DNA from: Escherichia coli
Lineage (GTDB): Bacteria; Pseudomonadota; Gammaproteobacteria; Enterobacterales; Enterobacteriaceae
Assembly: GCA_029351405.1 (NCBI GenBank)
Contig: GCA_029351405.1_4841.1
DNA length: 64,000 nucleotides
Reading direction: 5' to 3' (one strand)
Part shown: positions 3,542-42,941 of the stretch, piece by piece
Position numbering within the stretch: position 1 is the first letter of the stretch
Layout: each line of letters starts with the position of its first letter
The notes under the pieces: generated by a model
What the model saw: only the letters and a program-made list of their open reading frames with translations
The model's database searches: none
Told to the model about the DNA's origin: nothing
Program-made: the position numbers and the translations under genes

Positions 3542-3597
3542 GATATAGTCACTCAAATGAAAGGGCAGCTTTATGATAAGCCGCCCGAGGTTATTGA

Positions 3598-4464
3598 TTA
3601 TTGGAAATCGCCAACATACATGTTCAGCTTGTCGTCCCAATTCAGAACGACACGGATCGTTCCGGTATCTTCTGGGAAGGTCAGTTTGTCACACATGGCG
3701 CGATTAACATAAGTCCCGCTCTGGTTGACGTTGTAGTCCTTGCCTTGCATGATACCAAAACGCTTGAAGTCGCGAGTGACCATCATGTTCAACGTGGTCC
3801 ACGGAATGATGTCACGCAAGGCTTTGCACAGGACGATCTTGCCATCCGACCTGAACGACACAAACAGCTCGTTGGCGATACGACGGCGAGTAGGCGGTTC
3901 AAGTTCACGCAGGGAAATGAATTGTGAATTCTTTACCTTTTCTGCCAGCGCCTGTACTTCTGCTGGATCCGGCTTGAACGGCTCCACTGAAGAGTCAGAC
4001 TTCATCACAACATCACCCTTGCGCTTCTCAACCAATTGCTTCACAGCCTTTTGACTCACGGGCGGGAGGTATTTGGACTTAGGAACAACCGCTGGCTTGA
4101 TGACAGGGCTTGCATCTGGTTTCGCCTTTGGGGTACTCCGAGCCGCACGCAGCTTTTCCTGGGCTTGTAGAATGCGCTCTTGACGAGAAAGCGGAGCCTT
4201 TGGGGTGATCTTCGTACTGAAGTCAGAAACTCCGACCCAGTCACCCTGGTCGTTGCGCTTGGCGACCAGAGTCAGTTTGTGGATGATACCCTGAAGTTTG
4301 CTCTCACGTAAGTTGTCGGCATACCAGAACTTCGCGCCCATCTCGAACTTCTCGGCGAAGATCACGCGAGCGTCTTCGTGTACCAACATAACTTTGGCTG
4401 CGTTGGGGGCAAAAGCCTTATTCTTTTCGATAATCGCCGCAGCGATTGTTTTGGTCAGGAGCAT
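3598..4464 (-). CDS. hypothetical protein (288 aa) with Lys/Pro-rich central linker
   Basis: Long ORF, ATG at 4464 (GTG one codon upstream), AAGGA RBS. Confidence 0.5.
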   Translation of the reverse strand: MLLTKTIAAAIIEKNKAFAPNAAKVMLVHEDARVIFAEKFEMGAKFWYADNLRESKLQGIIHKLTLVAKRNDQGDWVGVSDFSTKITPKAPLSRQERILQAQEKLRAARSTPKAKPDASPVIKPAVVPKSKYLPPVSQKAVKQLVEKRKGDVVMKSDSSVEPFKPDPAEVQALAEKVKNSQFISLRELEPPTRRRIANELFVSFRSDGKIVLCKALRDIIPWTTLNMMVTRDFKRFGIMQGKDYNVNQSGTYVNRAMCDKLTFPEDTGTIRVVLNWDDKLNMYVGDFQ

Positions 4465-4503
4465 CACAGTGTATTCCTTCAGTTCACAATGTAGGGCTAA
4501 ATT

Positions 4504-4833
4504 TTAACCCGAAACTTTATTTTGAAATCCGACAAAGTCCTGGGCAATTCCCCGGCAATACATCAGGTCTTTCTTCGTTTGTGCACTGTTGTCAGCCGCA
4601 GTCAGCATCATGGGAAGGTCCAGCGCATTCTCTATCTGATCAACACTGAACAGATCAAGGCGCTTCAGCTCTCCCTCGAAGTCAGACAGTAGGATAGATG
4701 TGTCTTTGTCATCTGGGTGGAACTGCTGATACGTCTCCATCCATGCCACACATGTGTTCAGTTTGGACGGTGGCGCAGCGTTTACACACCCGGCTATCAG
4801 TACCAACAAGAGCAGGATTTTACATTTCATCAC
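4504..4833 (-). CDS. predicted lipoprotein
   Basis: 109 aa; N-terminus MMKCKILLLLVLIAGC has a hydrophobic core plus lipobox L-I-A-G-C. Confidence 0.55.
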   Translation of the reverse strand: MMKCKILLLLVLIAGCVNAAPPSKLNTCVAWMETYQQFHPDDKDTSILLSDFEGELKRLDLFSVDQIENALDLPMMLTAADNSAQTKKDLMYCRGIAQDFVGFQNKVSG

Positions 4834-5516
4834 TCGTTCTCCTTCATCATATTGTCGCAGTCAACGCGAGTCTGCTGGAGTTCGCGTGACATGCGAGGAT
4901 CATCAAGGTTCACGCTCAGATTCGTGGCCAGGTCTTTCAGACCGTTCTGAACCCTGTCTTCAAAGTAATAATCGTTCTCAACCAACCAGGCTCTGAGACC
5001 GAGAGCGCGAGTGCGCCATTCCTTCTTCAGGACGCGATCAGAGGTCTGCGTAGCGCTGTATTCGAATACTTTGATGCACTGGTTGCCATCGTTGATAAGG
5101 TTCAGGTGGCGGCGACCAACCTGCACACCCTTCTGTAATGCCGGAGAAGGGAGCGAACGACACTGTCTTACGGTCATTCGGCCTTGGGTGCCCATACGCC
5201 CAGTCATGATTAAATCGCCAGCCTCCATGCCTCCACGGTTAAATTCGTCGTCATTGAGGTAGCCCTTGAGGTTATAGGCTCCCTGTTTGTAACGGTTGAA
5301 CTCAATTCCGGCATTGACGACAGCAGTGGAGACGTTGCCTGTGTTCCAGAGTTCAGCGAAGTTCTCTATGGAACCAGACTTGTCGATGGCAACCGCCTGG
5401 GAGAACCCAGCACAATAGGAAAGGTCGGACCACAGTTTATCACCTGTGGAGTTCAGATTGGCAGCGGCGGGTAATGCCAGACCAGCCAGCACAACCCCGA
5501 GGATTAAACGTTTCAT
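4830..5516 (-). CDS. secreted/periplasmic protein (228 aa)
   Basis: ORF 4830-5681 trimmed to ATG 5516 with AGGAGA RBS; N-terminus MKRLILGVVLAGLALPAAA is a classic signal peptide. Confidence 0.55.
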   Translation of the reverse strand: MKRLILGVVLAGLALPAAANLNSTGDKLWSDLSYCAGFSQAVAIDKSGSIENFAELWNTGNVSTAVVNAGIEFNRYKQGAYNLKGYLNDDEFNRGGMEAGDLIMTGRMGTQGRMTVRQCRSLPSPALQKGVQVGRRHLNLINDGNQCIKVFEYSATQTSDRVLKKEWRTRALGLRAWLVENDYYFEDRVQNGLKDLATNLSVNLDDPRMSRELQQTRVDCDNMMKENE

Positions 5517-5595
5517 GGTGATTCTCCTTATTTCATTGGATGAAATGATAGGCGGCTCACCATGTTGAGTAAAGGGTTTCAATAAACTATCGTAT

Positions 5596-6045
5596 TCAGA
5601 AACGGGTATCGCTGACCGTTCTGTATCGCACACCCTGAAACTGTTTAGCGAGTTTAACAAATTCCATCGCTGGTAAATCAACTTTGTAGACCTTCATGCG
5701 CTGTTTGCCGTCCATGTTCAACGCAGCGACAAATCGGTGTGAGCCGTCAACAACGTAATTGTCAGAAGACACCCAAACCCGACCCATAGGTTTCTTATTT
5801 CTGATGTTCTTCATGATCTTCCAGACCTTCATCTTGTTGATTTCGTTCTGGGTAAGACGAAGCATTTTGATGGGCACTTGCGCAGCATCTATGGACACGC
5901 CGTTGTCTTCAAGATATTTGTGAAAATCTTCTTGTTTGTCGGCATCGATTTGCGGCATAGAAGAACGAGAAAGCCCGAGGTTCCCAACAGGAATCCTCAG
6001 GCCGTTAATGATGTTCAACCAGTCAATAAAAGATGTAAGGAACAT
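5596..6045 (-). CDS. ParB-N-like (DGxHR motif) domain protein
   Basis: 149 aa; VVDGSHRFVAA resembles the ParB/sulfiredoxin-fold DGxHR motif; GAGGTG RBS. Confidence 0.4.
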   Translation of the reverse strand: MFLTSFIDWLNIINGLRIPVGNLGLSRSSMPQIDADKQEDFHKYLEDNGVSIDAAQVPIKMLRLTQNEINKMKVWKIMKNIRNKKPMGRVWVSSDNYVVDGSHRFVAALNMDGKQRMKVYKVDLPAMEFVKLAKQFQGVRYRTVSDTRF

Positions 6046-6077
6046 GACACACCTCGGGATATAGGGTTATCCCTTAG

Positions 6078-6236
6078 TTAGCGCATCCATCGATCCTTTC
6101 TCTCTTTCTCCTTGCGTTCGCGACGTTTCTGGTCGGATCGGAATAACCAATAGAAGAAGTTCCCACCCAAGATGAAAACCACCGCGATTATTACTAGGAC
6201 ACCCTTCACAATTTCCCAAACCAATTCTTTATCCAA
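6078..6236 (-). CDS. small single-pass membrane protein
   Basis: Hydrophobic segment VLVIIAVVFILGGNFFYWLF followed by basic tail RSDQKRRERKEKERK; probable TTG start just after upstream stop with GAGGTG RBS. Confidence 0.35.
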   Translation of the reverse strand: MDKELVWEIVKGVLVIIAVVFILGGNFFYWLFRSDQKRRERKEKERKDRWMR

Positions 6237-6237
6237 A

Positions 6238-6525
6238 TTACACCTCGTCTTCTTCAGGTCCACCGTCAATCAGGATACGAGCGGTGTCGAAAGTTTCCCC
6301 ACCCGTGTTCAACAGCTTGGTTAGATCATCAAGAGTACCGACAGGACCAAGATCAGCCTGGCGGAGAACGAACTCTAGAAGCCCGTAGAGCGCTGATTGG
6401 AAACGGGAGTTGTCGATATCGTTCTTGACTTCCATCAGGCGGACAACATTGGCAGACTGGACATAACTCAGCTGAGTCTTACCTTTTGCCATGTCTTTCA
6501 CGGAACGGCGTTGTTCAGGCGTCAT
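6238..6525 (-). CDS. hypothetical protein (95 aa)
   Basis: ATG with G-rich RBS; ATGA overlap with upstream gene. Confidence 0.45.
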   Translation of the reverse strand: MTPEQRRSVKDMAKGKTQLSYVQSANVVRLMEVKNDIDNSRFQSALYGLLEFVLRQADLGPVGTLDDLTKLLNTGGETFDTARILIDGGPEEDEV

Positions 6526-6899
6526 AATGTTCCACCCCCGACAGAGATCAAGAACTCTTCTTGCATGGTCTTGACCGGGTGGTGGTTTCGGATTTCGATC
6601 ATGAAGCCCCAGCCGCCGTCGGCGACGTTGCCAAAGGTCTTGACGCCAAAGGACTTCGTCCCGTTGGAGCAGGAATAGATGTCCAGGACGTATGGGCTAC
6701 CCTGATTGTCGATCCCACGATTCACGTCTTCTGATACGCAGCGCTCAATCATCTTCCCGTTCTTATACAGAACGAGGTCTTGGCCATACGCCTTGAAAGC
6801 ATAAACACCGTTGGTAGACACTCCGGTGATGACAGGAGGGGCGGAAACAGCAGCAAAGGAAGCGCCTAGCAGGGCAACAGCGAGGATTAACTTTTTCAT
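6522..6899 (-). CDS. secreted protein (125 aa)
   Basis: ORF trimmed to ATG 6899; N-terminus MKKLILAVALLGASFAAVSA is a signal peptide; CTATATC-ATG-AAAAA initiation motif. Confidence 0.5.
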   Translation of the reverse strand: MKKLILAVALLGASFAAVSAPPVITGVSTNGVYAFKAYGQDLVLYKNGKMIERCVSEDVNRGIDNQGSPYVLDIYSCSNGTKSFGVKTFGNVADGGWGFMIEIRNHHPVKTMQEEFLISVGGGTL

Positions 6900-6923
6900 G
6901 ATATAGTCTCTTGGTTTCAAATG

Positions 6924-6945
6924 GGCGGGGTATGATTACCCCGCC
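6924..6945 (-). terminator. hairpin GGCGGGGTA-TGAT-TACCCCGCC plus TTTGAAA tail
   Basis: Downstream of the 168-aa gene; same stem as the hairpin at 7484-7504. Confidence 0.45.
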
Positions 6946-6951
6946 GTGGGT

Positions 6952-7458
6952 TTATAGAGTAACAAGTGATACGGTAAAAACCATCGTCCCGTCTGTTGCC
7001 ATTTTTCTTGAAACTGGTATGACGCGAGGCTGGCAGAATATCCATTCTTTCTCCATGGACGCCAAGTCCAGCATATCCATTTCTGATTCATCGCCTTTGT
7101 TCACAAATTTTTCTAGAGAACCATAGACATTAAGCCCCTCCGGGAGTCCGTTTCGATGTTTGTAACAAATGCGGGCAACAGCTTTGGTTCCGTACGATTT
7201 AGAAAATTGTTTGGCCACATGCTTCAGTTCACTGAAGCTAAGACAAGAATCCCATGTCTGGAACATGTCGCCTCGTTCAAACATCATCTCTAAACGCGCA
7301 ACGTCCTCTTTAGGCAGCCCGCGATAAAGTGTGGTCGTCTGTGGTTCGCGTAATTCTTGCACCAGATCACGGACGGCAGGGGAAACAGTACCGGGGCGCA
7401 TTATGTGGGACTTATCATGGACGAGGTAAAATAAATCTTGAATTTGTTGATCGGTCAT
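6952..7458 (-). CDS. hypothetical protein (168 aa)
   Basis: ORF trimmed to ATG 7458 (MTDQQIQ...), AGGAA RBS, flanked by two copies of the same hairpin. Confidence 0.5.
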   Translation of the reverse strand: MTDQQIQDLFYLVHDKSHIMRPGTVSPAVRDLVQELREPQTTTLYRGLPKEDVARLEMMFERGDMFQTWDSCLSFSELKHVAKQFSKSYGTKAVARICYKHRNGLPEGLNVYGSLEKFVNKGDESEMDMLDLASMEKEWIFCQPRVIPVSRKMATDGTMVFTVSLVTL

Positions 7459-7483
7459 GGTATAGTTCCTGCATTTCAAATAG

Positions 7484-7504
7484 ACGGGGTAATCATACCC
7501 CGCC
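7484..7504 (-). terminator. hairpin CGGGGTA-ATCA-TACCCCG plus TTTGAAA tail
   Basis: Downstream of the 63-aa gene; copy of the 6924 hairpin with an inverted loop. Confidence 0.45.
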
Positions 7505-7564
7505 CAAAGTTATAGAATTAACTGATGTGCTTCAGAAGAGCGAAGAGGATCGCGGCCTTGGCCT

Positions 7565-19377: not shown

Positions 19378-19409
19378 TTCAGCCTCGTGTAGAAGAATCA
19401 TTTCAAATA

Positions 19410-19428
19410 GGCGGGGAACTCCCCCGCC
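19410..19428 (-). terminator. hairpin GGCGGGG-AACT-CCCCGCC plus TATTTGAAA
   Basis: Between the sliding clamp gene and the endonuclease gene. Confidence 0.45.
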
Positions 19429-19458
19429 CACACATTATAGCATCAGGCTGGAGATTGA

Positions 19459-41862: not shown

Positions 41863-42619
41863 ACCCCATGTAGAAGTCGATAGGGTACTGCTGGCCAGTG
41901 CGCAGTTCTTCCTCTAAACGCTCGATCTCCGCTTCAGCCTCACTGAACATAGTATCACCATCCAGCTCAATACCGCCAGGGAGACGGATGCCTCTTGCCT
42001 TCTTGAGCACTTCCGCCCAGCGGCGCTTGACCAACGCAGTTGCATATGCCTTCAGCCACATATCATTCCATGCTTCTTCATTACCCTCAACCTCTGGGTC
42101 GATGTTCTGGAAGCATTTGAACGCCAACACCTCGTCCTTTATCAGGGCGAATTGTGGGTAGAGTTTGCGCTGGAATTTCTTGTAAACGAAGGTGCGCTTC
42201 ACGTTCAGTACACTGGTGATGTCAGACAAACGCTGTTGCATTGAAACATAGTCGACCAAGCGGATGGAAACGAGGGCGGCCTTTGGTACCAACATGGCTT
42301 GGGCCATCTGCCATTGAGGGGTTGCCCAGTTACCGATCGATTCAATCGGAGGGCCAACGATGACTTCAACCACGTCGTCGATGTCTTTGGGGAACTCGAT
42401 GTAACCGTTGGTGATAGTTTCTTCAGTCACCTGGTGAACAAAGAATGCGTCCTGACTGCCATCACGATGATACTCCCAAAACTTCTGTAGAGCATCGTCT
42501 ACAGCATCCGAAACTTGCGTTGGGTCAAGGTTGATCTGAATTACAGGTGCCCCCAATTTCTTGAGAATGTAATTCATAAATCCTTTACGATCAACAATAG
42601 AATTAACGGCCATTGCCAT
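41861..42619 (-). CDS. neck protein (gp13-like, by synteny)
   Basis: 252 aa in the position of T4 gene 13. Confidence 0.4.
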   Translation of the reverse strand: MAMAVNSIVDRKGFMNYILKKLGAPVIQINLDPTQVSDAVDDALQKFWEYHRDGSQDAFFVHQVTEETITNGYIEFPKDIDDVVEVIVGPPIESIGNWATPQWQMAQAMLVPKAALVSIRLVDYVSMQQRLSDITSVLNVKRTFVYKKFQRKLYPQFALIKDEVLAFKCFQNIDPEVEGNEEAWNDMWLKAYATALVKRRWAEVLKKARGIRLPGGIELDGDTMFSEAEAEIERLEEELRTGQQYPIDFYMG

Positions 42620-42941
42620 TCCCCTTGTTGCTCTGGATATCAGCGACGGTGATACGTAAAGTGCGAACGTCGTCGGATAGACTGTTGCTATTGAGTTTCA
42701 ACTCAGCAACGTTCTGCTTGACGTAGTTAACGTCTGTGTTTAACACAGCAATCTTCTCATTCATATCGTTCACCTTGGTGAGGATTAGGTCGACCTTGTT
42801 GGAGTCACGCTCAACCACATCAAGGCGATTCTCAAATTTACCCATCATCCAAACAACCGAGCCAACAGAGACTATCGTCGCCGTCAGCACCCCAGTGAGG
42901 ATCGCTTTCACATCGATCACAGTGTCAGTTTGGGTTGCCAT
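42603..42941 (-). CDS. membrane-anchored coiled-coil protein (112 aa)
   Basis: ORF trimmed to ATG 42941 with GGAGGTC RBS; hydrophobic helix AILTGVLTATIVSVGSVVWMMG followed by heptad-like region. Confidence 0.4.
   Translation of the reverse strand: MATQTDTVIDVKAILTGVLTATIVSVGSVVWMMGKFENRLDVVERDSNKVDLILTKVNDMNEKIAVLNTDVNYVKQNVAELKLNSNSLSDDVRTLRITVADIQSNKGNGNGR

What the first reader, a model, noticed from the sequence alone, without database searches (positions are those of the whole stretch)
4504..6899. Cluster of exported proteins within the early region
Three genes encode products with clear N-terminal export signals: a lipoprotein with lipobox LIAGC (4504-4833), a 228-aa periplasmic protein (4830-5516) and a 125-aa secreted protein (6522-6899). 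A small single-pass membrane protein lies between them (6078-6236). Envelope-targeted early proteins in lytic phages are often superinfection-exclusion or receptor-masking factors, or counter envelope-associated defences.
Basis: partly seen in the sequence, partly recalled or inferred. Interest (0 to 1): 0.45.

Follow-up and report, generated by a model that had tools for sequence, protein, structure and literature searches.

The report
Phage periplasmic protein pair, mislabelled spanins
This phage makes a small cluster of proteins that it sends into the host's cell envelope. The two conserved ones are labelled in public databases as the proteins that burst the outer membrane, but they lack the membrane anchors that job needs, so their real function is still unknown.

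Summary
The window is an Agtrevirus-like Ackermannviridae phage. On the minus strand at 4504-6899 it encodes a lipobox protein (LIAGC), a 228-aa protein and a 125-aa protein with classical cleavable signal peptides, and a 52-aa single-pass membrane protein.

With the ParB-like gene upstream they are syntenic in every relative examined, and the small gene is in 282 phage records. Public records call them i-/o-spanin or "Rz-like spanin". That label fails its defining features:
- The 228-aa protein has a 12-residue hydrophobic core followed by an invariant P-A-x-A cleavage motif, not a transmembrane anchor.
- The lipobox cysteine is present in only 3 of 21 loci and about 7 of 37 protein clusters. 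It is absent in CBA120.

Both proteins are therefore ancestrally soluble, cysteine-bearing periplasmic proteins. The lipid anchor here is a recent, lineage-specific gain.

The pair has a conserved sigma-70-type promoter. No late-promoter motif lies nearby, which supports early expression.

No fold or sequence relative of known function was found. Function is unproven. My best guess is an early periplasmic module related to superinfection (exclusion or lysis-inhibition sensing). The 125-aa and 52-aa genes are variable accessory cassettes.

The parts
4504..4833 (-). Small subunit of the pair (108 aa from the ATG at 4830, 109 aa from the GTG at 4833). It has a lipoprotein signal MKCKILLLLVLIAGC. 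The mature protein is about 94 aa, acidic (pI 4.4), a compact 5-helix bundle with 2 invariant Cys.
   Evidence: ORF and lipobox. AlphaFold2 pLDDT 86. Conservation and invariant C27/C92. Lipobox present in only 3/21 loci and 7/37 clusters. PHROG 3843, labelled 'Rz-like spanin'. pI.
4830..5516 (-). Large subunit of the pair (228 aa). It has a cleavable Sec signal peptide (MKRLILGVVLAGLALPAAA|N). The mature protein is about 209 aa with 4 invariant Cys. Its stop codon overlaps the start of the small subunit (TGATG).
   Evidence: invariant P16, A17, A19; C35, C119, C147, C220; hydrophobic core of 12 aa against 20 aa in lambda Rz; only 10 representative clusters in 1.84 billion proteins; distant homologues also have classical signal peptides.
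5545..5573 (-). Sigma-70-type promoter for the pair: TTTACT-N17-TATCAT.
   Evidence: 9/12 match; both hexamers and the 17-nt spacing are conserved in Agtrevirus-, Kuttervirus- and Taipeivirus-like loci, while the spacer sequence differs.
5596..6045 (-). ParB-like 149-aa protein. It is not exported. It is always immediately upstream of the pair and is a syntenic neighbour rather than a demonstrated partner.
   Evidence: PHROG 2859/1033. Synteny in 21 loci plus L028/L029.
6078..6236 (-). 52-aa single-pass membrane protein with a short acidic N-terminus, a 21-aa TMD and a strongly basic C-terminal tail. It is a variable accessory gene.
   Evidence: PHROG 14464 'membrane protein'. Present in only some relatives.
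6238..6525 (-). 95-aa protein with no export signal and unknown function. It sits between the exported genes, and its start overlaps the stop of the 125-aa gene.
6522..6899 (-). 125-aa secreted protein (signal MKKLILAVALLGASFAAVSA|PP). It has 2 conserved Cys and its sequence looks beta-rich. It is a variable accessory gene, missing from most of the Kuttervirus-like loci.
   Evidence: Presence and absence.
6915..6978 (-). Promoter-like TTTACC-16-TATAAA, then the stem-loop GGCGGGGTAATCATACCCCGCC, then CATTTGAAA, upstream of the 125-aa gene. It is one copy of a repeated element.
7474..7520 (-). Second copy of the TATAA / stem-loop / ATTTGAAA element, upstream of the ADP-ribosyltransferase-like gene (6952-7458). 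The two copies bracket a cassette that is absent from a 99%-identical relative.
   Evidence: ART-like PHROG 832.
3563..3586 (-). Terminator-like hairpin plus T-run after the 289-aa gene that follows the pair. It is the probable end of the transcription unit.

Best explanation
**What is shown.**
- The 228-aa and 108-aa genes encode a translationally coupled pair of Sec-exported proteins with invariant cysteines. The pair is specific to, and conserved across, the Ackermannviridae.
- Ancestrally both are soluble periplasmic proteins with cleavable signal peptides.
- In this phage's lineage the small subunit has gained a lipobox. Here it is probably tethered to the inner face of the outer membrane through a short linker of about 8 residues.
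- The pair has its own conserved sigma-70-type promoter and lies far from any late-promoter motif. It is probably made early by host RNA polymerase.
- It sits in one transcription unit with two variable envelope proteins (125-aa secreted, 52-aa membrane), next to recombination-prone promoter/stem-loop repeats.
- It is not a two-component spanin.

**What is inferred.**
- The two proteins form a periplasmic complex.
- The complex acts on a conserved partner that appears in the periplasm during infection.
- Most likely it handles superinfection. It could block an incoming phage, as T4 Spackle does by inhibiting the tail lysozyme. Or it could sense superinfection to delay lysis, as the T4 RI antiholin does.
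- The two variable genes are accessory exclusion or host-takeover cassettes.

The stated confidence refers to the functional inference. The structural part (exported soluble pair, not a spanin) I hold at about 0.8.
For: **Export signals and cysteines.**
- Signals are present and conserved.
- P-A-x-A is invariant with a variable -2 residue, and the hydrophobic core is 12 residues.
- Distant homologues at 35% identity keep classical signal peptides.
- There is an even number of invariant Cys in each protein.

**Coupling and synteny.**
- A 1-4-nt start/stop overlap is kept even in the deepest relatives.
- The ParB-like / large / small trio is syntenic in 21 of 21 loci plus L028 and L029.
- The small gene is present in 282 phage records, nearly all named for enterobacterial hosts of Ackermannviridae. 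Both genes are listed among the core genes of Vi01-like phages (PMC10892097).

**The lipobox is dispensable.**
- It is present in 3 of 21 loci and 7 of 37 clusters.
- A close relative has Ser in place of the Cys.
- It is absent in CBA120 orf133.

**Early expression.**
- The TTTACT-N17-TAtcAT hexamers are conserved while the spacer varies.
- All 12 CTAAATA motifs lie at 22351-62337. Most of them sit 25-45 nt upstream of a start codon.
- None lies within about 2.5 kb upstream of the pair in the 23 related loci.
- CTAAATA is the late promoter of the T4-like phage Aeh1 (PMC1524935).

**Biological need.**
- CBA120 shows T4-like lysis inhibition at high multiplicity of infection, with no holin or antiholin identified (PMC3184105).
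- T4's Sp and RI are small, early, secreted periplasmic proteins (my own knowledge of T4 biology).
- The large subunit is 82-95% identical across genera whose neighbouring genes are 30-60% identical. This fits a conserved target.
Against: - The BFVD viral library returned only a family member from Erwinia phage phiEa2809.
- The large subunit could not be modelled (pLDDT 42), so complex formation and mode of action are pure inference.
- Exclusion genes are usually accessory and fast-evolving, whereas this pair is core and slow-evolving.
- Promoter assignments are by sequence only. No transcriptome was found.
- Signal-peptide cleavage was judged by rules, not by SignalP or experiment.
Confidence: 0.35

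Rival explanations
1. The pair is a genuine two-component spanin, as the public annotation says. The 228-aa protein would be the inner-membrane i-spanin and the lipoprotein the outer-membrane o-spanin. Together they would bridge the periplasm and fuse the membranes at lysis.
For: - Gene order and overlap resemble the i-spanin / o-spanin architecture.
- The window's small protein has a canonical outer-membrane lipobox.
- Marshall gp94/gp95 are annotated this way and are included in the spanin survey.
- PHROG 3843 carries the label 'Rz-like spanin'.
- Ackermannviridae otherwise have no identified spanin (PMC6139136).
Against: - The 'i-spanin' has no TMD. Its hydrophobic core is 12 aa against 20 aa in lambda Rz. 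In CBA120 the uncharged stretch is only 16 aa, and AxA is invariant.
- The lipobox is missing from most orthologues, including CBA120 orf133, which RefSeq still labels a spanin.
- The same survey lists Vi01, CBA120, PhaxI, SFP10, Maynard, AG3 and others as spanin-less. It flags the Marshall pair as the extreme outlier in periplasmic length, at 300 residues.
- The small protein is a compact helical bundle with 4% Pro on an 8-residue tether, against 24% Pro in Rz1.
- There is no late promoter.
- The annotated endolysin lies about 20 kb away in a relative.
- The genome announcements mention no spanin and give no experiment behind the label.
Confidence: 0.07
2. The pair is a non-canonical lysis component. 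It could be a soluble periplasmic outer-membrane disruptor in a family that lacks spanins.
For: - The family needs some way to breach the outer membrane, and none is known (PMC6139136; PMC3184105).
- The pair is listed among the core genes of Vi01-like phages and is strongly conserved.
- Repeated acquisition of an outer-membrane anchor in one lineage suggests the outer membrane is a relevant site.
Against: - The promoter is early-type and there is no late motif. A disruptor accumulating from early times would need a restraint that is not evident.
- The small subunit is acidic and globular, with no amphipathic or cationic membrane-active segment evident on reading the sequence.
- There is no linkage to the annotated endolysin.
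Confidence: 0.13
3. The pair is a host-takeover or counter-defence factor. It would bind or inhibit a conserved host periplasmic or envelope component, such as a protease, a nuclease, Tol-Pal/Lpp, envelope-stress sensors or an envelope-associated defence. It would not act on phages.
For: - Early-type promoter and a neighbourhood of host-takeover genes, including an ADP-ribosyltransferase-like gene.
- Conservation across phages of Salmonella, Escherichia, Klebsiella, Serratia, Dickeya and Erwinia fits a target conserved in Enterobacterales.
Against: - No match to any PADLOC, Pfam or NCBIfam model.
- No host partner can be named.
Confidence: 0.25

Closest known systems
Two-component spanins (lambda Rz/Rz1, T4 PseT.3/PseT.2)
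   Same: Two adjacent, overlapping genes for envelope-directed proteins, with the larger one first. In this phage the second is an outer-membrane lipoprotein. Both have periplasmic cysteines. Public databases file the pair here.
   Different: The larger protein has a cleavable signal peptide instead of an N-terminal TMD. The lipobox is absent from most orthologues. The small protein is a folded, Pro-poor helical bundle on a very short tether. The promoter is early-type. No experimental support exists.
T4 Spackle (Sp, gp61.3), periplasmic inhibitor of the gp5 tail lysozyme
   Same: A small, early, Sec-exported, helical periplasmic protein of a T4-related myovirus whose baseplate hub carries a lysozyme. 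[quoted passage not shown]
   Different: No sequence or fold match to any PDB entry. Here there are two subunits. The Ackermannviridae hub lysozyme is of a different type (PMC3184105).
T4 RI antiholin (periplasmic sensor for lysis inhibition)
   Same: A small secreted periplasmic protein made from early times. The family shows a lysis-inhibition phenotype whose components are unknown.
   Different: There is no signal-anchor-release type N-terminus and no similarity to RI or to the holin T periplasmic domain. No holin is identified in the family to pair it with.
Phage lipoprotein exclusion factors (T5 Llp, phi80/N15 Cor)
   Same: In this lineage, a small phage-encoded outer-membrane lipoprotein expressed before lysis.
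   Different: The lipid anchor is not conserved in the family. The protein is coupled to a larger periplasmic partner. Ackermannviridae use polysaccharide receptors through tail spikes, not an outer-membrane protein that such factors usually mask. No homology was detected.

Membership tests
Two-component spanin: i-spanin | N-terminal transmembrane domain (type II, N-in/C-out) anchoring the protein in the inner membrane | tested here: not met
   The hydrophobic core is LILGVVLAGLAL, 12 aa, against 20 aa in lambda Rz. In CBA120 orf135 the uncharged stretch is 16 aa and is bounded by Lys. P16-A17-x-A19 is invariant with a variable -2 residue, which marks a signal peptidase I site. Distant homologues also have classical signal peptides. 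The test is rule-based; SignalP and experiment were not available.
Two-component spanin: i-spanin | Extended, largely coiled-coil periplasmic domain able to reach across the periplasm | tested here: inconclusive
   The AlphaFold2 model is unreliable (pLDDT 42). Its longest predicted helix is about 21 residues and the N-terminal 138 residues are unmodelled. The spanin survey itself notes that many i-spanins lack coiled-coil predictions.
Two-component spanin: o-spanin | Lipobox and outer-membrane lipoprotein sorting signal | tested here: not met
   The feature is met in this window (LIAGC, Val at +2). It is not a property of the family. The lipobox is present in 3 of 21 loci and 7 of 37 clusters. 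It is absent in CBA120 orf133 and in the deep relatives L028 and L029. The close relative P0037 has Ser in place of the Cys.
Two-component spanin: o-spanin | Gene embedded in, overlapping or adjacent to the i-spanin gene | tested here: met
   The stop of the 228-aa gene overlaps the start of the small gene (TGATG, or 4 nt with the GTG start). The overlap is conserved in L028 and L029.
Two-component spanin | Homology to an experimentally verified spanin, or functional complementation of a spanin-null phage | tested here: not met
   The only 'spanin' hit is PHROG 3843, which is the family itself. The 228-aa protein hits only PHROGs of unknown function. Pfam and NCBIfam gave nothing. The Marshall and Maynard announcements report no experiment. 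Complementation cannot be tested here.
Two-component spanin | Expression with the lysis programme (late transcription or lysis-cassette linkage). This is usual but not strictly defining; T4 is an exception. | tested here: not met
   No CTAAATA late motif lies in 1-22000 of the window, and none lies within about 2.5 kb upstream of the pair in 23 related loci. A conserved sigma-70-type promoter precedes the pair. The endolysin is annotated about 20 kb away in relative PQ306799.
Sec (type I) signal-peptide proteins: 228-aa and 125-aa products | Basic n-region, 7-15-residue h-region, small residues at -3/-1 | tested here: met
   MKR-LILGVVLAGLAL-PAAA|N and MKK-LILAVALLGASF-AAVSA|P. Both are conserved in homologues. 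Cleavage itself was not tested.
Bacterial lipoprotein (type II signal): small subunit in this phage | Lipobox [LVI][ASTVI][GAS]C at the end of a short h-region | tested here: met
   I-A-G-C with Cys at residue 15 of the 108-aa form. The whole-genome-equivalent scan finds only one other plausible lipoprotein. Lipidation was not tested.
T4 Spackle / T4 RI / holin T periplasmic domain / T5 Llp | Detectable sequence or fold similarity to the solved structures of these proteins | tested here: not met

The most novel reading that the evidence does not exclude
The conserved periplasmic pair is the missing envelope component of Ackermannviridae lysis control. It would be either the sensor/antiholin behind the T4-like lysis inhibition seen in CBA120, or a new anchor-independent way of breaching the outer membrane in a large, therapeutically used phage family that has no spanin. 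In either case it would use a protein fold with no known relatives.
Probability: 0.2. Interest if true: 0.7.

Novelty: new variant of a known kind. Interest (0 to 1): 0.42.

Why it matters
Ackermannviridae (Vi01, CBA120, Det7, LIMEstone1, AV101 and others) are widely isolated and used for biocontrol and therapy. Their holin, antiholin, outer-membrane disruption step and exclusion functions are still unidentified (PMC3184105; PMC6139136). A 2024 family review does not mention any of these topics.

The only 'spanin' annotation in the family is carried in many of the 282 phage records that hold the small gene, and in a PHROG family name. It rests on a lineage-specific lipobox and a signal peptide misread as a membrane anchor.

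Correcting this does two things. It removes a false answer to how these phages breach the outer membrane. It also highlights a family-specific, strongly conserved periplasmic protein pair as a concrete, easily testable candidate for superinfection handling or lysis control.

Tried and rejected
**Structure and fold.**
- AlphaFold2 of the 228-aa protein on a 20-sequence alignment gave pLDDT 42, so the model was unusable for fold search.
- Profile searches against PDB sequences found nothing.

**Family libraries.**
- Pfam, NCBIfam and PADLOC gave nothing for any of the nine proteins in the region, or only sub-threshold noise.
- Pfam on the distant homologues also gave nothing.

**Ideas tested and not supported.**
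- That the small protein is Spackle-like, RI-like or a lysozyme inhibitor of a known family: no similarity.
- That the downstream 289-aa protein matches the Band_7 protein at the same position in relative L028: no similarity.

**Search for an alternative spanin.**
- I scanned the window plus 99 kb of a relative. This found one further lipoprotein, next to the DNA polymerase gene, with no membrane-protein neighbour.
- It also found one type II membrane protein with a tail that reads like a coiled coil in the late region. No pair was found.

**Literature.**
- Searches for Ackermannviridae transcriptomes or experiments on these genes found nothing relevant.
- T4's late-promoter motif TATAAATA is not used here: one chance-level hit.
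Full report
**1. Identity of the window.**
The region 4000-7500 is 96% identical over its full length to Enterobacter phage fGh-Ecl02 and to Escherichia phages vB_EcoM-ZQ1 and AV101. It matches 276 phage records. The annotated relatives I examined (Marshall, vB_CECAV_050, ChubbyThor, CBA120) are all classified in the Ackermannviridae. The window is therefore an Agtrevirus-like Ackermannviridae genome segment. Every gene between 2.8 and 10.6 kb is on the minus strand.

**2. The observation.**
- The 109-aa ORF (4504-4833, GTG) more probably starts at the ATG at 4830, giving 108 aa. That is the start annotated in relatives. Its N-terminus MKCKILLLLVLIAGC|VNA has a canonical lipobox. It has no Asp at +2, which by the E. 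coli sorting rule (my own knowledge) predicts the outer membrane.
- The 228-aa product begins MKRLILGVVLAGLALPAAA|NLN.
- The 125-aa product begins MKKLILAVALLGASFAAVSA|PP.
- The 52-aa product has one 21-residue hydrophobic segment followed by a very basic tail.

The signals are conserved in homologues. I scanned 226 ORFs with a simple rule, covering the window plus the remainder of a relative's genome. Signal-like N-termini were almost confined to this cluster, with P about 0.01 for the clustering. The caveat is that SignalP and LipoP were not available.

**3. Two of the genes are one conserved module that databases call a spanin.**
- The stop codon of the 228-aa gene overlaps the start of the small gene, and a strong Shine-Dalgarno sequence (AAGGAG) lies inside the upstream gene.
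- In all 21 related loci retrieved from IMG/VR, the order ParB-like gene, 228-aa gene, small gene is kept. The 125-aa, 52-aa and ADP-ribosyltransferase-like genes come and go.
- Two much more distant relatives keep the same trio and the same start/stop overlap. They are about 35% identical in the large protein. One comes from a 156-kb contig.
- The small protein is encoded in 282 phage records of Salmonella, Klebsiella, Escherichia, Dickeya, Serratia, Shigella, Erwinia and Enterobacter phages.
- Both genes appear in a published core-gene list for Vi01-like phages (PMC10892097).
- In phage Marshall they are annotated i-spanin and o-spanin, and likewise in ChubbyThor.
- PHROG 3843, which is the small protein's own family, carries the name 'Rz-like spanin'. 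RefSeq applies that name to CBA120 orf133, PhaxI, Det7, SFP10, LIMEstone1 and others.

**4. The spanin label fails its defining features.**

*The 'i-spanin' has no membrane anchor.*
- An i-spanin must be anchored in the inner membrane by an N-terminal TMD. The 228-aa protein has a hydrophobic core of 12 residues, against 20 in lambda Rz measured the same way.
- The core is followed by Pro-Ala-x-Ala. This is invariant in 20 diverse family members, while the -2 residue varies (A, S, T, H). That is the signature of selection for signal peptidase I cleavage.
- In CBA120 orf135 the whole uncharged stretch is 16 residues and ends at a Lys.
- The 35%-identity homologues also carry textbook signal peptides.

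*The 'o-spanin' is usually not a lipoprotein.*
- The lipobox Cys is present in only 3 of 21 loci: the window's closest relative, Marshall and P46FS4.
- It is present in about 7 of 37 protein clusters at 90% identity.
- All the rest have ordinary signal peptidase I signals (…VYA|AP, …VLA|AP, …ALA|VP). These include CBA120 orf133 (MRNIIFLLFFSMLASFQVVA|TP) and the deep relatives.
- One close relative of the lipobox clade has Ser in place of the Cys.
- The mature part of the protein is highly conserved, with two invariant Cys.
- The conserved function therefore does not need a lipid anchor. The anchor here is a recent lineage-specific gain.
- The lipobox allele is 98% identical between this Agtrevirus-like window and the Kuttervirus Marshall, while other Kuttervirus-like loci are about 70% identical. 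This points to exchange between genera.

*Shape.*
- The small protein is confidently modelled as a compact five-helix bundle (pLDDT 86; about 96 in the mature domain).
- It has 4% Pro and an 8-residue tether. Rz1 is Pro-rich at 24%.

*The literature is internally inconsistent.*
- The spanin survey counts the Marshall pair as a singleton spanin family with the longest periplasmic length in the data set, 300 residues.
- The same survey lists Vi01, CBA120, PhaxI, ECML-4, SFP10, Maynard, SJ2, SJ3, phiSboM-AG3 and Dickeya phage RC-2014 as spanin-less (PMC6139136).
- The Marshall and Maynard genome announcements do not mention spanins and give no experiment behind the annotation.

I therefore reject membership in the spanin family, with a residual probability of about 0.07.

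**5. Timing.**
- T4's late-promoter motif TATAAATA is not used here.
- The motif CTAAATA, often followed by CCCC, occurs 12 times. All copies are on the minus strand between 22351 and 62337, and most lie 25-45 nt upstream of a start codon. In this part of the genome a relative has tail-spike and baseplate genes annotated.
- The same heptamer is the late promoter of the T4-like phage Aeh1 (PMC1524935).
- None occurs in 1-22000 of the window. In 23 related loci none lies within about 2.5 kb upstream of the pair.
- The 79-nt spacer between the ParB-like gene and the 228-aa gene contains TTTACT-N17-TATCAT. Across Agtrevirus-, Kuttervirus- and Taipeivirus-like loci both hexamers and the spacing are conserved while the spacer sequence differs. 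That is the comparative signature of a working sigma-70 promoter.
- The 125-aa gene is preceded by TTTACC-16-TATAAA and a stem-loop.
- A terminator-like hairpin follows the 289-aa gene downstream of the pair.

The 'early region' description is thus supported by sequence evidence. I found no transcriptome to confirm it.

**6. What the pair is.**
- Both proteins are orphans. Pfam, NCBIfam and PADLOC gave no hits.
- The 228-aa family has only 10 representative clusters among 1.84 billion proteins.
- Profile searches against all PDB sequences found nothing.
- The large subunit could not be modelled.
- *Shown:* two Sec-exported proteins with an even number of invariant cysteines each, made in a coupled fashion. 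The large one is 82-95% identical across genera where neighbouring genes are 30-60% identical. The small one is acidic, with pI 4.4.
- *Inferred:* they form a periplasmic complex that acts on a conserved partner.

**7. Most likely function, and rivals.**
CBA120 shows T4-like lysis inhibition at high multiplicity of infection. No holin, antiholin or spanin is known for the family (PMC3184105; PMC6139136). A 2024 review of the family contains none of the words holin, endolysin, lysis inhibition, superinfection, promoter or periplasm.

In T4, the early secreted periplasmic proteins are Spackle, which inhibits the incoming tail lysozyme, and RI, the antiholin and superinfection sensor (my own knowledge).

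By analogy of location, timing and biological need, but not by homology, I rank the readings as follows:
- superinfection-related periplasmic function: about 0.35;
- a host envelope target, as takeover or counter-defence: about 0.25;
- a non-canonical outer-membrane disruptor: about 0.13;
- a true spanin: about 0.07.

The remainder is unassigned.

The 125-aa and 52-aa genes are variable, and the 125-aa gene and its ADP-ribosyltransferase-like neighbour are preceded by repeated promoter/stem-loop elements.

**8. Verdict.**
- The functional interpretation is untested, and it is only partly apt for the conserved pair.
- The main result is a correction of a widespread annotation. It also identifies a family-specific periplasmic pair as a defined experimental target.
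- This is a new, unrelated variant of a known kind of thing: early phage proteins sent to the envelope. It is of moderate interest.

Noticed in passing
window 6915-6958, 7474-7520 and 19401-19440 (minus strand): A repeated element of about 45 nt: TATAA(A/C/T), then 4-6 nt, then a GC-rich stem-loop (GGCGGGG..CCCCGYC), then YATTTGAAA. It sits upstream of the 125-aa gene, the ADP-ribosyltransferase-like gene and a third gene. A 99%-identical relative (L004) lacks the ADP-ribosyltransferase gene. It carries a single hybrid copy made of the left half of one repeat and the right half of the other. The roughly 560-bp cassette was therefore gained or lost by recombination between the repeats. This resembles T4 promoter-early stem-loop (PeSL) shuffling.
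   Followed up: partly
window 22351-62337 (minus strand), 12 sites: CTAAATA, often followed by CCCC, lies 25-45 nt upstream of most of the nearby gene starts. All copies are on the coding strand. It is a likely late promoter for this family. The 2011 CBA120 paper stated that the family's late promoter was unknown. The same heptamer is the Aeh1 late promoter.
   Followed up: partly
window 42603-42941 (minus strand): A 112-aa protein with a 22-residue N-terminal TMD (AILTGVLTATIVSVGSVVWMMG) and a tail of about 70 residues that reads like a coiled coil. It belongs to PHROG 3961 (unknown function). It lies in the late region between a protein that matches a 'virion structural protein' family and one that matches a head-tail adaptor family. 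Its topology is that of an i-spanin or a class III holin, which makes it a better anchor-bearing lysis candidate than the 228-aa protein. No lipoprotein partner was found nearby.
   Followed up: partly
relative PQ306799.1 143212-143553 (L027 18213-18554), outside the window: A second phage lipoprotein candidate (113 aa, MKLNKILLVCALAFSTTAC|S, PHROG 3748) lies just downstream of the DNA polymerase gene. The next gene has no signal or membrane segment, so this is not a spanin pair either.
   Followed up: partly
window 4504-6045 versus L005 (Marshall) and L009-L015: There is mosaicism inside the cluster. The pair is 98% identical to Marshall, a Kuttervirus, but only 70-95% identical to other Kuttervirus-like loci. 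The adjacent ParB-like gene shows the opposite pattern: 83% to Marshall and 97-98% to the others. This implies recombination breakpoints between the ParB-like gene and the pair, and exchange of the lipobox allele between genera.
   Followed up: no
L029 2745-3077 and L028 5028-6028 (distant relatives): Downstream of the pair, the distant relatives carry other envelope proteins. One has a 110-aa secreted protein that aligns only weakly with the window's 125-aa protein. The other has a 69-aa two-TMD protein followed by a Band_7/SPFH protein. This position seems to collect envelope-directed genes.
   Followed up: no
window 6952-7458 (minus strand): A 168-aa protein matches the C-terminal part of the PHROG for RNA polymerase ADP-ribosylase (Alt/Mod-like, E 3e-15). 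It is present in only a few relatives.
   Followed up: no
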